Sequence record: PZ386972.1
Source: a phage
Strand: one strand, 5' to 3'
DNA: 64,000 bases
Shown: positions 40,957-42,560 of the stretch, one piece after another
Position numbering within the stretch: the stretch's first letter is position 1
How the letters are laid out: each line of letters starts with the position of its first letter
Position numbers and translations under genes: made by a program
Notes under the pieces: generated by a model
Seen by the model: the letters and a program-made list of their open reading frames with translations, nothing else
Databases searched by the model: none
Told to the model about the DNA's origin: nothing

Positions 40957-41194
40957 ATTTATATAAATTGATGAGGATTTCTCCTCATCATAGTTCACTA
41001 AGGTATTAGCTCGACCTAGGACTGGCTGCCAAAAAGCACGATCCCTACGATTCGGGAGAAGTTCTAGATTAGTCCACTAGATTCAGCGGCAACTGAATAG
41101 TGTATCGGGTTTGCGAGATGACGCGGTTCCTTCCGCTCGAAGCGAAGGTGCTGTAGTTACGCCGAGCTAATAGCCTTAGTAAACTAAAGAATTT

Positions 41195-41273
41195 GGGGAA
41201 TGGGTCTGCATGGAGTGGACACCTCGCTTGCACCGAGGACATCAGAACGGTTCGATTCCGTTATTCTCCACCA
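41195..41273 (+). tRNA. tRNA-Ala (anticodon UGC)
   Basis: Acceptor GGGGAAT/ATTCTCC; anticodon stem CCTCG/CGAGG with loop CTTGCAC; T-arm AACGGTTCGATTCCGTT; CCA. Confidence 0.6.
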
Positions 41274-41278
41274 AATAC

Positions 41279-41355
41279 GCGTGATTGATGGAATTGGCAT
41301 ACATACCGTCCTTAGAAGTCGGGTTTTGAGGGTTCGAATCCCTTGTCACGCACCA
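41279..41355 (+). tRNA. tRNA, anticodon uncertain (hand fold gives UAG)
   Basis: Acceptor GCGTGAT/GTCACGC; D-arm ATG/CAT; T-arm GAGGGTTCGAATCCCTT; CCA; anticodon stem has a U-U mismatch. Confidence 0.4.
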
Positions 41356-41440
41356 AATTTGATGGTCAGAGTAAATTAAACCTACTATCTCGGTTGAGCT
41401 GTTTTAATGGGTTCGAATCCCAGCGAGGCGTAACTGCCTG
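41356..41440 (+). ncRNA. orphan T-arm-like hairpin plus adjacent hairpin; possible tRNA remnant or small RNA
   Basis: TGGGTTCGAATCCCA at 41408-41422 and AGGCGTAACTGCCT at 41427-41440; no acceptor partner found. Confidence 0.25.
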
Positions 41441-41467
41441 GCGTGATAGAGGCATCATCTTATTATT

Positions 41468-41558
41468 GGAAGAGCAAATCGAATTGGCGACGAAAACCGC
41501 TTGGAAAGTGGCTGACTGGTAAAACGGCTTGAGAGTTCAAATCTCTCCTCTTCCGCCA
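41468..41558 (+). tRNA. tRNA-Ser (anticodon GGA), long variable arm
   Basis: Acceptor GGAAGAG/CTCTTCC; anticodon loop TTGGAAA; T-arm GAGAGTTCAAATCTCTC; CCA; 91 nt. Confidence 0.55.
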
Positions 41559-41570
41559 AACAATTTATAT

Positions 41571-41665
41571 GGTAGGTCAATCCAATGGCTGGCGCTGGAC
41601 TCCGACTTGAAATCGGTTGATCGTAGTGATACGGTGTAAGGGTTCGATCCCCTTACCTACCTCCA
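41571..41665 (+). tRNA. tRNA-Ser (anticodon UGA), long variable arm
   Basis: Acceptor GGTAGGT/ACCTACC; anticodon loop CTTGAAA; variable stem CGTA/TACG; T-arm AAGGGTTCGATCCCCTT; CCA; 95 nt. Confidence 0.55.
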
Positions 41666-41670
41666 AGTCT

Positions 41671-41802
41671 TGAAGTATGCCGGAATCGGTAGACGGGGCT
41701 GCCTAAAAGGTTTATAGGGAACATCCACTCCCTACAACATACCTCATAAAGCGGCTGAGATAAATGGTCTATCTCGTGAAGGTTCAAGTCCTTCTGCTTC
41801 TT
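41671..41802 (+). ncRNA. structured region with terminal T-arm (GAAGGTTCAAGTCCTTC) and internal hairpins, unresolved
   Basis: Hairpins TAGGGA...TCCCTA (41714-41734) and GAGATA...TATCTC (41757-41775); T-arm 41778-41794; no CCA. Confidence 0.25.
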
Positions 41803-42031
41803 GATACATCTATGGCTCAAAGTGTAACGGTGCTATTTGATGCTCTTAGTAAGACTTTCCCGACATGCGTTCGGGAGTAAGCTGCTAAGGCTAGAATAGA
41901 AGAGTTTCTGAGAGCCGCCACAATTGAAAATTCGTACTCGTCTTGAGCTGCGTGCAATAGGAGATAACTTGATTAGTATTCTAGAACATGCTAATTGAGG
42001 ATGGTTTCGCTAACCCTGCGAGTTTTCAATT

Positions 42032-42108
42032 GTGGCTATATCATAATTGGTTAATGATCCTGATTGTGAATCAGGCCTATGTGGATTCGAATTCCACTAG
42101 CCACCCCA
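42032..42108 (+). tRNA. tRNA-His (anticodon GUG)
   Basis: Acceptor GTGGCTA/TAGCCAC; D-arm TCAT/ATGA; anticodon stem CCTGA/TCAGG with loop TTGTGAA; T-arm GTGGATTCGAATTCCAC; CCA. Confidence 0.65.
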
Positions 42109-42133
42109 AATTAACTTAAATAGGAAATAAAAT

Positions 42134-42331
42134 ATGGCTGATTTCTGCAAACAATGCTCCATTGATATGTGGGGCAGAGATACTGGTGATCTTTCTGGTT
42201 TGATTACAGAAGCTGAGGTCAAAGAAGGTTATGGTGCAGTTGTGATTTGCGAAGGATGCGGAGTTATTCGAGTAGATCATGAAGGCAAACGTTTAGAAGA
42301 ACAGGAAAACTTAGGAGAAACAAATGAGTAA
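42134..42331 (+). CDS. hypothetical Cys-containing protein (65 aa)
   Basis: ORF track; RBS. Confidence 0.4.
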   Translation: MADFCKQCSIDMWGRDTGDLSGLITEAEVKEGYGAVVICEGCGVIRVDHEGKRLEEQENLGETNE

Positions 42332-42560
42332 TGCTTTAATTAGTGAAATTATGTTAACACGTCTTGCAGAACTGCAAACTCTTCGAGATGAATCTCAGAA
42401 TAACTTAGCCTACCATAAACAGATGGTAGATACTCTTACTACTCGTATTGATACTTACGAGCGTGATATTGCAGCATTACAAGCTCTTTTCTCTGTATCA
42501 GCACCAGATACGTTAGAACAGCCTGCTGTATCTCAGCCAGTAGAAACAGCATCTAGCTAA
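42324..42560 (+). CDS. hypothetical protein (78 aa)
   Basis: ORF track; overlapping start and stop. Confidence 0.4.
   Translation: MSNALISEIMLTRLAELQTLRDESQNNLAYHKQMVDTLTTRIDTYERDIAALQALFSVSAPDTLEQPAVSQPVETASS

What the first reader, a model, noticed from the sequence alone, without database searches (positions are those of the whole stretch)
41803..42038. Perfect 14-bp long-range inverted repeat overlapping the tRNA-His 5' end
GCCACAATTGAAAA (41917-41930) is the exact reverse complement of TTTTCAATTGTGGC (42023-42036), and the latter overlaps the first five nucleotides of tRNA-His. About 92 nt lie in between, including hairpin TCCCGA...TCGGGA at 41867-41886. In the precursor RNA this would sequester the tRNA 5' end in a long duplex, a candidate RNase III or processing-control structure.
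Basis: seen in the sequence. Interest (0 to 1): 0.5.

Follow-up and report, generated by a model that had tools for sequence, protein, structure and literature searches.

The report
Processing stalk around T5 RNA III
The inverted repeat is real: it is the base of a conserved 20-base-pair RNA stalk in a T5-like phage that encloses the long-known but unexplained "stable RNA III" and takes in the start of tRNA-His, and its geometry suggests the host double-strand RNase (RNase III) cuts it to release the neighbouring RNAs.

Summary
The window is a T5-like phage tRNA cluster. The 14-bp repeat is exact, at the stated coordinates, and is the only such repeat in the window (0.06 expected). It is the core of a 20-bp helix (41917-41936 / 42017-42036). 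The helix is RNA III's 12-bp terminal stem plus 8 precursor-only pairs, made from the RNA I 3' end and spacer and from tRNA-His -1 to +5. Relatives carry five unrelated fillings at this site, one a bare hairpin, and all keep a 19-21-position helix. Across nine arm variants 96.7% of cells pair and 12/20 pairs change on both sides. Vibrio phage Brizo has the same 18-bp helix, and its arm co-varies with tRNA-His nucleotide 4. The annotated RNA III ends lie across the helix with a 2-nt 3' overhang, as do those of a second stable RNA (RNA 2H). Best explanation: an RNase III-type processing stalk, with RNA III the excised stalk-loop. The structure is shown here. The enzyme is inferred.

The parts
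41814..41920 (+). Stable RNA I (rnaI), 107 nt. 5' GGCUC pairs with GAGCC, followed by G-CCA. Its last four nucleotides (GCCA, 41917-41920) are the first four of the stalk's 5' arm.
   Evidence: Annotated as misc_RNA rnaI in phage 5, BF23, DT57C and T5. Mapped by alignment. 100/107 identical to T5 rnaI. Fold.
41917..41936 (+). 5' arm of the 20-bp precursor stalk (GCCACAAUUGAAAAUUCGUA).
   Evidence: Covariation.
41921..41924 (+). 4-nt spacer CAAU between the annotated RNA I 3' end and RNA III 5' end. It is paired in the precursor. The inferred cut on this strand is between 41924 and 41925.
   Evidence: Gap between the annotated genes. Pairing. The cut is inferred from the annotated RNA III 5' end.
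41925..42030 (+). Stable RNA III (rnaIII), 106 nt: a 12-bp terminal stem with a 2-nt 3' overhang (AU), closing a multi-branch interior.
   Evidence: 106/106 identical to the annotated T5 rnaIII. Annotation. Fold -29.7 kcal/mol, z -2.85. Overhang check.
42017..42036 (+). 3' arm of the stalk (UGCGAGUUUUCAAUUGUGGC). The inferred cut on this strand is between 42030 and 42031.
42031..42108 (+). tRNA-His(GUG). ARAGORN and Rfam start it at G1 = 42032. The T5-group records annotate 78 nt starting at U-1 = 42031. Nucleotides -1 to +5 lie in the stalk. C73 and CCA are encoded.
   Evidence: 78/78 identical to T5.

Best explanation
The repeat is the core of a 20-bp long-range RNA helix, a processing stalk, in the polycistronic transcript of the T5-type tRNA region. 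Its 5' strand is the 3' end of stable RNA I (GCCA), a 4-nt spacer (CAAU) and the 5' end of stable RNA III. Its 3' strand is the 3' end of RNA III, then U-1 and G1-C5 of tRNA-His. Shown here: the helix exists, is far beyond chance, is conserved with compensatory changes, persists when RNA III is replaced by four other unrelated fillings (one only a hairpin loop), recurs in a different phage subfamily, and out-competes the tRNA-His acceptor stem in the uncut precursor. Inferred: the host double-strand-specific endonuclease RNase III binds this two-turn helix and cuts both strands inside the palindromic CAAU|UG. That single event would (i) release RNA III as a stalk-loop with a 12-bp stem and a 2-nt 3' overhang, which would explain why it accumulates as a stable RNA, (ii) leave RNA I with a 4-nt trailer (CAAU) that 3' exonucleases can trim back to CCA, and (iii) free the tRNA-His 5' strand so it can pair with its own 3' strand. 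On this reading RNA III is mainly the excised apical part of a processing signal. The same would hold for RNA 2H upstream of tRNA-Ala.
For: 1) Identity: the interval is annotated rnaI / rnaIII / tRNA-His in four T5-group records, and the window's RNA III is 106/106 identical to T5's. 2) Structure: the arm-to-arm segment folds at -45.4 kcal/mol, z = -6.7, with 0/200 shuffles as good. The stalk forms in the MFE and the centroid of 41800-42110. 3) Conservation: fillings A (RNA III, about 274 records), B (65), C (15), D (a bare hairpin, phage S124) and E (a metagenome contig) all keep a helix of 19-21 stacked positions. 4) Covariation on arms taken at fixed coordinates: 96.7% of cells paired, 12/20 pairs changed on both sides, 0/500 shuffles as high, slid registers 33-44%. 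Specific events: G:C to A:U in type D; G:C to A:U, U.U to G.U and U:A to U.G between two type C phages; U.G to U:A in L124; and in Vibrio phage Brizo, arm C to U together with tRNA-His G4 to A4. 5) RNA level and strand: every variant has G.U pairs, which would be A-C mismatches on the other strand. 6) Specificity: the longest uninterrupted helix containing tRNA +1..+4 is 14 bp at most (median about 8) in 783 control phage tRNAs, but 19-20 in 32/35 T5-type tRNA-His contexts and 19 in Brizo. tRNA-His is also the outlier among the window's 26 tRNAs. 7) RNase III fit, using rules read in PMC1540722: about two helical turns; the annotated RNA III ends lie across the helix with a 2-nt 3' overhang in T5 and DT57C; 12 bp above the cut, where at least 11 are needed; U:A next to the scissile bond; A:U at the position where G-C blocks binding; a U.G pair with U on the 5' strand at bp 11, matching the strict second distal-box position. 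8) Independent replicate: RNA 2H (window 41004-41175) also sits in a long precursor helix, its annotated ends also leave a 2-nt 3' overhang, and the helix base reaches tRNA-Ala +1..+5. 9) Precedent: E. coli RNase III takes part in phage T4 tRNA maturation (PMC4810235).
Against: No cleavage data were available, and no paper on T5 RNA III processing could be found or read. The 2-nt overhang argument rests on GenBank coordinates whose experimental basis I could not check. The tRNA-His start at U-1 may be annotated by analogy with E. coli tRNA-His. The first distal-box pair is G:C, not the canonical U:A, and in type B the distal-box positions are U:A and A:U, which that paper reports as poor. Within type A the arms are only weakly more conserved than the interior (1/40 against 10/80 variable sites, p = 0.066). 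U at -1 is the ordinary nucleotide before an RNase P site (69% of control tRNAs), so RNase P could make the tRNA-His 5' end, and with it the RNA III 3' end, without RNase III.
Confidence: 0.6

Rival explanations
1. The helix is simply the terminal, acceptor-like stem of a functional stable RNA III. Its ends are made by RNase P (5' end of tRNA-His, so 3' end of RNA III), RNase E and exonucleases. The 8 extra precursor pairs are incidental, because any upstream RNA ending in G-CCA is automatically complementary to U2-C5 of a tRNA-His that starts GUGGC.
For: RNA III is annotated as a discrete stable RNA. GCCA/UGGC complementarity also appears where ordinary tRNAs precede tRNA-His (Sf14 and L057). 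U-1 is the usual RNase P context. The RNA III sequence is nearly invariant in type A phages.
Against: Phage S124 (type D) has no RNA III at all yet keeps a 14+4-bp hairpin on the same base, with a compensatory G:C to A:U change. Four unrelated fillings each supply their own inner helix. In Brizo the upstream arm co-varies with tRNA-His nucleotide 4, and in Proteus phage 2 a dedicated non-CCA sequence pairs with tRNA-His +1..+11. A leader paired with the trailer is a poor RNase P context, and RNA III has no NCCA tail.
Confidence: 0.2
2. Processing control, not mere excision. The stalk is a kinetic trap that holds back tRNA-His folding and RNase P access until it is cut or unwound. This would tie tRNA-His (and RNA I) output to RNase III activity or to transcription timing.
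For: The stalk-intact fold is 9.3 kcal/mol better than the fold with the acceptor stem enforced. The 5' arm is transcribed about 190 nt before the tRNA's own 3' strand. The arm GCCAC is identical to the tRNA's 3' acceptor strand. In Proteus phage 2 a competing small hairpin overlaps the 5' arm.
Against: No evidence of regulation. This is a refinement of the main model, not an alternative to it. Nearest-neighbour energies ignore tRNA tertiary structure.
Confidence: 0.1
3. A DNA-level feature: a palindromic site (GCCACAAT|TGTGGC with a CAATTG core) used as an insertion or exchange point for cassettes, for example by the homing endonucleases that populate T5 tRNA regions. The RNA helix would be a by-product.
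For: Five different fillings occupy exactly the same site between identical flanks. CAATTG occurs at both borders. HNH endonuclease genes hegC and hegD flank this region in T5.
Against: Pairing extends 8-10 positions beyond the shared flanks with filling-specific sequence. It includes two or more G.U pairs per helix, which only make sense in + strand RNA, and it shows compensatory change. Each filling is single-copy per genome, so they are not MITE-like. Brizo, Proteus phage 2 and Sf14 keep the helix without the CAATTG palindrome. Cassette exchange through the conserved flanks can coexist with the RNA function.
Confidence: 0.07
4. A chance repeat, or an intrinsic terminator or attenuator.
For: A 64-kb AT-rich window holds a dozen imperfect inverted repeats. 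The consensus scan flags a weak 5-bp hairpin followed by a T-rich tail (TTTTCAATTG) at 42006-42022.
Against: 0.06 perfect 14-mers expected per window. Conserved with covariation in hundreds of genomes. The 3' arm is followed by the tRNA body, not a U tract. Terminator-like hits are no more frequent than in shuffles (2 against 1.4).
Confidence: 0.01

Closest known systems
Bacteriophage T5 stable RNA III and RNA I genes (rnaIII T5s01, rnaI T5s02; also annotated in BF23, phage 5, DT57C; Ksenzenko et al. 1982, BBA 697:235, title seen in a reference list)
   Same: It is the same locus: 106/106 identity for RNA III, the same order rnaI - rnaIII - tRNA-His, and the same lengths.
   Different: The records say only 'stable RNA with unknown functions'. 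Not in those annotations: the precursor-only extension of the stem into RNA I and tRNA-His, its covariation, the interchangeable fillings, and the RNase III-type stagger of the ends.
RNase III processing stalks of bacterial rRNA operons (long-range helices formed by the sequences flanking 16S and 23S rRNA; established knowledge, summarised in PMC4810235 and PMC6582327)
   Same: Sequences on both sides of a stable RNA pair over about two helical turns. A staggered double cut would excise the enclosed RNA and separate the neighbouring stable RNAs.
   Different: Here the excised product is about 100 nt with no known function, the stalk is only 20 bp, and its base is built from the functional ends of the neighbours (a CCA end and a tRNA acceptor strand).
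RNase III step in phage T4 tRNA maturation (McClain 1979; Gurevitz and Apirion 1983, cited in PMC4810235) and the T4 stable RNAs species 1 and 2 (rnaC, rnaD)
   Same: A phage tRNA cluster that also encodes small stable RNAs of unknown function and whose precursor needs host RNase III.
   Different: Tested here: the annotated ends of T4 rnaC and rnaD are not enclosed by a long helix. In the predicted fold the main T4 tRNA-Gln leader hairpin (about 11 bp) lies upstream of the tRNA rather than running through its 5' end as the T5 stalk does.
Phage T7 R1.1 / uR1.1 RNase III hairpin substrates (PMC1540722)
   Same: Two-turn helix, at least 11 bp between the cut and the helix top, A-U/U-A at the scissile bond, U.G at the distal position. 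The type D hairpin even has 11 stacked positions capped by a GCAA tetraloop, like uR1.1.
   Different: The first distal-box pair is not canonical. Most variants close a multi-branch loop instead of a tetraloop. Cleavage is untested.
B. subtilis scRNA precursor processing by Bs-RNase III (PMC1935012, abstract seen)
   Same: A small stable RNA matured by two RNase III cuts at 5' and 3' sites of its precursor.
   Different: A different organism and RNA. That product is a functional SRP RNA.

Membership tests
T5-group stable RNA III gene (rnaIII) | Sequence identity to the annotated T5 rnaIII over its full 106 nt | tested here: met
   106/106 identical. Alignment with phage 5, BF23 and DT57C.
T5-group stable RNA III gene (rnaIII) | Synteny: rnaI, 4-nt spacer, rnaIII, then tRNA-His directly abutting | tested here: met
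T5-group stable RNA III gene (rnaIII) | Accumulates as a discrete stable RNA in infected cells | not testable with these tools
   Only the database annotation 'stable RNA with unknown functions'. The primary papers are not held.
E. coli RNase III processing site | Double helix of about two turns (about 20-22 bp) | tested here: met
   20 uninterrupted pairs, 18 Watson-Crick and 2 G.U. Rule from PMC1540722.
E. coli RNase III processing site | Cuts on both strands leaving 2-nt 3' overhangs | tested here: met
   The annotated RNA III 5' end pairs with the nucleotide 2 nt before the annotated 3' end in T5 and DT57C. The same holds for RNA 2H. This rests on annotated ends, not on mapped ends.
E. coli RNase III processing site | [quoted passage not shown] | tested here: met
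   12 bp above the cut (41925-41936) and 8 nt below it on the 5' strand. Types B-E: 11-13.
E. coli RNase III processing site | Proximal box: A-U/U-A next to the scissile bond, and no G-C/C-G at proximal-box position 2 | tested here: met
   bp1 is U41925:A42028 and bp3 is A41927:U42026 (rules). My mapping of box positions onto the uR1.1 numbering is itself an inference from the text, because the figure was not available.
E. coli RNase III processing site | Distal box canonical UA/UG at bp 10-11 | tested here: inconclusive
   bp11 is U41935.G42018, which matches the strict U.G. bp10 is G:C, not U:A. Type B has U:A and A:U there.
E. coli RNase III processing site | Cleaved by RNase III in vitro, or rnc-dependent ends in vivo | not testable with these tools
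   No data found.
Processing stalk of a polycistronic stable-RNA precursor (rRNA-operon type) | Complementarity between the 5' and 3' flanks that extends beyond the mature ends and is kept by covariation | tested here: met
   8 pairs beyond the RNA III ends. 12/20 pairs change on both sides, 96.7% of cells paired, 0/500 shuffles.
Intrinsic (rho-independent) terminator | G+C-rich hairpin immediately followed by a U tract | tested here: not met
   The 3' arm runs into the tRNA-His body. Only a weak 5-bp consensus hit inside RNA III, no excess over shuffles.
tRNA or tRNA-like RNA (for RNA III itself) | Match to tRNA covariance or cloverleaf models | tested here: not met
   No ARAGORN call and no Rfam hit, even at E up to 10, for 41925-42030.
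MITE-like mobile insertion with terminal inverted repeats | Multiple dispersed copies per genome | tested here: not met
   Fillings B, C and D occur once per record (65 places in 65 records; 15 in 15; 2 in 2).
T4-type stable RNAs (species 1 / species 2, rnaC / rnaD) | Same precursor architecture (not a formal family definition; used for comparison) | tested here: not met
   In predicted folds the annotated T4 rnaC and rnaD 5' ends are unpaired and no flanking long helix forms.

The most novel reading that the evidence does not exclude
The leader stalk is an RNase III-dependent, RNase P-independent way of setting the 5' end of phage tRNA-His. Most phage tRNA-His genes sampled here lack the encoded G-1 that bacterial HisRS normally relies on and have U-1 opposite C73. 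A cut at -2|-1 inside the stalk would leave a 5'-phosphorylated extra nucleotide (the 78-nt form annotated for T5), which RNase P alone would not produce. Unrelated phages (T5 group, Vibrio Thalassavirus, Proteus Novosibvirus, Mooglevirus Sf14, a 163-kb contig) would then have converged on, or inherited, a tRNA-His-specific leader helix for this purpose, and the classic T5 'stable RNAs' III and 2H would be its excised by-products.
Probability: 0.15. Interest if true: 0.75.

Novelty: new member of a known kind. Interest (0 to 1): 0.48.

Why it matters
T5 RNA I and RNA III have been carried in the records as 'stable RNA with unknown functions'; the cloning paper dates from 1982. The analysis gives RNA III, and RNA 2H, a concrete and testable origin: the excised top of a double-strand processing signal whose base is built from the functional ends of the neighbouring RNAs. 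Nature has already swapped its interior five times without touching the stalk. It also shows that a long leader helix taking in the first nucleotides of tRNA-His recurs in several phage lineages, most of which lack the encoded G-1. That raises the question of how phage tRNA-His gets its 5' end and is recognised by the host synthetase. Practically, it warns annotators that the 'hypothetical proteins' called across this interval in many T5-like genomes overlie RNA genes.

Tried and rejected
- Rfam, at gathering thresholds and at E up to 10, finds nothing for RNA I or RNA III.
- Small ORFs overlapping the interval (38, 24 and 43 aa) are broken by the alternative fillings, so I dismissed them.
- Eight literature searches and one DOI look-up found no readable paper on T5 RNA III structure or processing and no T5 transcriptome with end mapping.
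- A duplex-energy survey reaching 400 nt upstream did not discriminate, because G+C-rich arms of upstream tRNAs give strong spurious duplexes in controls. I replaced it with the longest-uninterrupted-helix test.
- Adding the first 11 tRNA nucleotides to the upstream fold separates T5-type tRNA-His clearly, but other phage tRNA-His only weakly (mean -3.5 against -2.8, p = 0.006). A leader helix is therefore not a universal property of phage tRNA-His.
- The single metagenome scan returned only 10 loci, though one gave type E.
- The T4 rnaC/rnaD comparison showed no shared architecture.
- Terminator, promoter, chance and MITE readings were rejected.
- The RNA III internal 12-bp hairpin shows a disruptive, not compensatory, change in the Epseptimavirus copies (U:A to U.U; sequences). 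I make no claim about a conserved RNA III interior fold.

Full report
**What the window is**

The window carries 22-24 tRNA genes on the + strand. Positions 41300-42400 match 468 phage records, with Salmonella phage SCF best at 99.9% and the rest T5-like Demerecviridae. So the finding lies in the tRNA region of a Tequintavirus-type phage.

**Observation**

- The two 14-mers are exact reverse complements at the stated coordinates, 92 nt apart. The 3' copy covers G1-C5 of tRNA-His.
- It is the only perfect 14-mer inverted repeat with a gap of 150 nt or less in the window. Dinucleotide shuffles give 0.06 per window.
- Pairing runs on for six more positions, two of them G.U, giving a 20-bp helix 41917-41936 / 42017-42036.
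That is upstream of the 5' arm, inside RNA I.

**What is already annotated there**

Four curated T5-group records (phage 5, BF23, DT57C and the T5 RefSeq) annotate this interval as follows:

| Gene | Description in the records |
|---|---|
| rna1 | tRNA-like RNA |
| rnaI | 107 nt |
| rnaIII | 106 nt |
| tRNA-His | 78 nt, starting one nucleotide before the ARAGORN start |

The two stable RNAs are described only as 'stable RNA with unknown functions'. By alignment the window has:

- RNA I at 41814-41920, ending GAGCC-G-CCA
- a CAAU spacer at 41921-41924
- RNA III at 41925-42030
- tRNA-His from U-1 = 42031

RNA III is 106/106 and tRNA-His 78/78 identical to T5. The title of a 1982 paper on cloning the T5 stable-RNA genes appears in a reference list, but none of the primary papers could be read.

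**Anatomy**

- The inner 12 bp of the helix are the terminal stem of mature RNA III (5' UGAAAAUUCGUA / UGCGAGUUUUCA-AU 3').
- The outer 8 bp exist only in the precursor. They pair the RNA I GCCA end plus the CAAU spacer with the last two nucleotides of RNA III, U-1, and G1-C5 of tRNA-His.
- The arm-to-arm segment folds at -45.4 kcal/mol (z = -6.7), and the stalk forms in the MFE and the centroid of 41800-42110.
- The upstream GCCAC is identical to the 3' acceptor strand of tRNA-His, so the two compete for the tRNA's 5' strand. The stalk-intact fold is 9.3 kcal/mol better than a fold with the acceptor stem enforced. This ignores tertiary structure.

**Comparative evidence within the T5 group**

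Reading the interval between RNA I and tRNA-His in 37 loci, and later in metagenome contigs, shows five unrelated fillings at exactly this site:

| Type | Filling | Where seen |
|---|---|---|
| A | RNA III | about 274 phage records |
| B | about 62 nt | 65 records |
| C | about 132 nt | 15 records |
| D | a bare hairpin | phage S124 only |
| E | about 110 nt | one metagenome contig |

- All keep the basal helix, and each supplies its own inner pairs to reach 19-21 stacked positions.
- Type D changes helix position 10 from G:C to A:U.
- Two type C phages differ by G:C to A:U, U.U to G.U and U:A to U.G.
- One type A contig turns the U.G wobble at 41931/42022 into U:A.

**Comparative evidence beyond the T5 group**

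- Vibrio phage Brizo, in another subfamily, has an 18-bp helix in the same register around an insert of about 190 nt. Its upstream arm co-varies with nucleotide 4 of its tRNA-His: GCCAC:GUGGC becomes GUCAC:GUGAC.
- I took arms at fixed coordinates, so nothing was fitted. Across nine distinct arm pairs, 96.7% of cells pair, 12 of 20 pairs change on both sides, no shuffle in 500 reaches this, and slid registers pair only 33-44%.
- G.U pairs in every variant place the structure in + strand RNA, not in DNA.
- Looser versions of the same layout (an upstream tRNA ending in CCA, a long hairpin, then the tRNA-His 5' end drawn into the helix base) occur in three more lineages:
  - Proteus phage 2: about 24 bp covering tRNA-His +1..+11
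  - a 163-kb contig, L057
  - the unrelated myovirus Sf14

**Specificity**

- Among the window's 26 tRNAs, tRNA-His has by far the strongest leader/upstream duplex: -20.6 kcal/mol against -4.3 to -15.2.
- Among 783 other phage tRNAs, the longest uninterrupted helix that includes tRNA +1..+4 never exceeds 14 bp (median about 8). It is 19-20 bp in 32 of 35 T5-type tRNA-His contexts and 19 in Brizo.
- Not every phage tRNA-His has such a helix.

**Mechanism**

The annotated RNA III 5' end (41925) pairs with 42028, and the annotated 3' end is 42030. The ends therefore face each other with a 2-nt 3' overhang, symmetric within the palindromic CAAU|UG. A biochemical paper on E. coli RNase III substrates (PMC1540722) states the following features, compared here with the stalk:

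| RNase III feature | This stalk |
|---|---|
| Cuts both strands, leaving 2-nt 3' overhangs | Met, using the annotated ends |
| About two helical turns | 20 bp |
| At least 11 bp between the cut and the helix end | 12 bp |
| A-U or U-A next to the scissile bond | U:A |
| No G-C two pairs further in | A:U |
| Distal box UA/UG at pairs 10-11 | Half met: U.G at pair 11, but G:C at pair 10 |

A second stable RNA, RNA 2H (window 41004-41175), gives an independent replicate. It too sits inside a long precursor helix, its annotated ends again leave a 2-nt 3' overhang, and the helix base again reaches the first nucleotides of the next tRNA, tRNA-Ala.

I therefore propose that host RNase III cuts the stalk. 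That would release RNA III as a nuclease-resistant stalk-loop, leave RNA I with a 4-nt trailer to be trimmed to CCA, and free the tRNA-His 5' strand. The helix and its conservation are shown here. The enzyme and the cut sites are inferred.

**Rivals**

- 'Just the RNA III terminal stem, with RNase P making the ends' is weakened by type D, which has no RNA III, by the filling-specific inner helices, and by covariation with the tRNA itself. It is not excluded, because U-1 is the normal RNase P context.
- A DNA-level cassette site may explain how the fillings are exchanged. It cannot explain the G.U-containing, compensating pairs beyond the shared flanks, and the fillings are single-copy.
- Terminator, promoter and chance readings fail.

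**Comparison with known systems**

- The locus is the known T5 rnaI-rnaIII-tRNA-His unit.
- It works most like an rRNA-operon processing stalk or a T7 R1.1-type RNase III site.
- It has a precedent in the RNase III step of T4 tRNA maturation (PMC4810235).
- It differs from the T4 stable RNAs rnaC and rnaD, which are not enclosed by such a helix.
- No Rfam family covers it.

**Verdict**

I rate it a new member of a known kind, with moderate interest. Its main value is a testable origin for two long-unexplained phage RNAs and a possible link to the unusual 5' end of phage tRNA-His.

Noticed in passing
window 40982-41199 (RNA 2H at 41004-41175; tRNA-Ala from 41195): A second annotated 'stable RNA with unknown functions' (RNA 2H of BF23/DT57C) is enclosed by a precursor helix of about 28 bp that extends beyond its annotated ends. 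Those ends also leave a 2-nt 3' overhang, and the helix base is predicted to pair with tRNA-Ala +1..+5.
   Followed up: partly
IMG/VR and phage loci L040-L118; window 42031: Most phage tRNA-His genes sampled lack an encoded G-1. Outside the T5 type, T is at -1 in 25 contexts, G in 12 and C in 2. In other tRNAs it is T 69%, A 18%, C 12% and G 1%. T5-type tRNA-His has U-1 opposite C73 but otherwise the same acceptor stem as I recall for E. coli tRNA-His.
   Followed up: partly
window 41468-41554 and 41571-41661: Two tRNA-Ser genes (GGA and UGA anticodons), annotated in relatives, are missed by ARAGORN and fall below the Rfam tRNA threshold here. They appear only as sub-threshold tRNA-Sec hits (37.6 and 19.7 bits).
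   Followed up: no
window 41669-41813: 'RNA1', annotated in T5, BF23 and phage 5 as a tRNA-like stable RNA. It has a D-arm, a T-arm and a near-complete acceptor stem, but a long insertion where the anticodon arm should be. It is absent from DT57C.
   Followed up: no
window about 41661-41669, against L003 501-674 and L037 360-533: The window lacks the 174-nt ORF (trn 2.14 / T5.063) that lies between tRNA-Ser(UGA) and RNA1 in T5, BF23 and phage 5. HildyBeyeler instead has an extra CDS between tRNA-Leu and tRNA-Ser. The region is mosaic.
   Followed up: no
L039 (Escherichia phage SelmaRatti) 702-792: The tRNA-His gene is a chimera. The T5-type 5' half, through the anticodon arm, is fused to a different long-variable-arm 3' half whose acceptor strand (CTAGCAGCTCCA) does not match the 5' strand. 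The RNA III stalk upstream is intact.
   Followed up: no
window 41764-41880, 41924-41998, 41988-42119 and the corresponding places in many records: Many T5-like GenBank records annotate 'hypothetical protein' CDSs across RNA I, RNA III and tRNA-His. These short ORFs overlie RNA genes and are disrupted in the phages with other fillings.
   Followed up: partly
L038 (Proteus phage 2) about 655-675: A 9-bp hairpin (UGUAGACG-CUA-UCGUCUACA) overlaps the 5' arm of the tRNA-His leader helix. The two structures are mutually exclusive, which makes a possible switch.
   Followed up: no
type A 42003-42015 (GGTTTCGCTAACC) and type C filling (GAGAGTTCGCTACTCC, L019): The RNA III and type C fillings both end in a small hairpin with a TTCGCTA loop, reminiscent of a T-loop. 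This hints that the fillings may be decayed tRNA-like modules. Seen by eye in the sequences.
   Followed up: no
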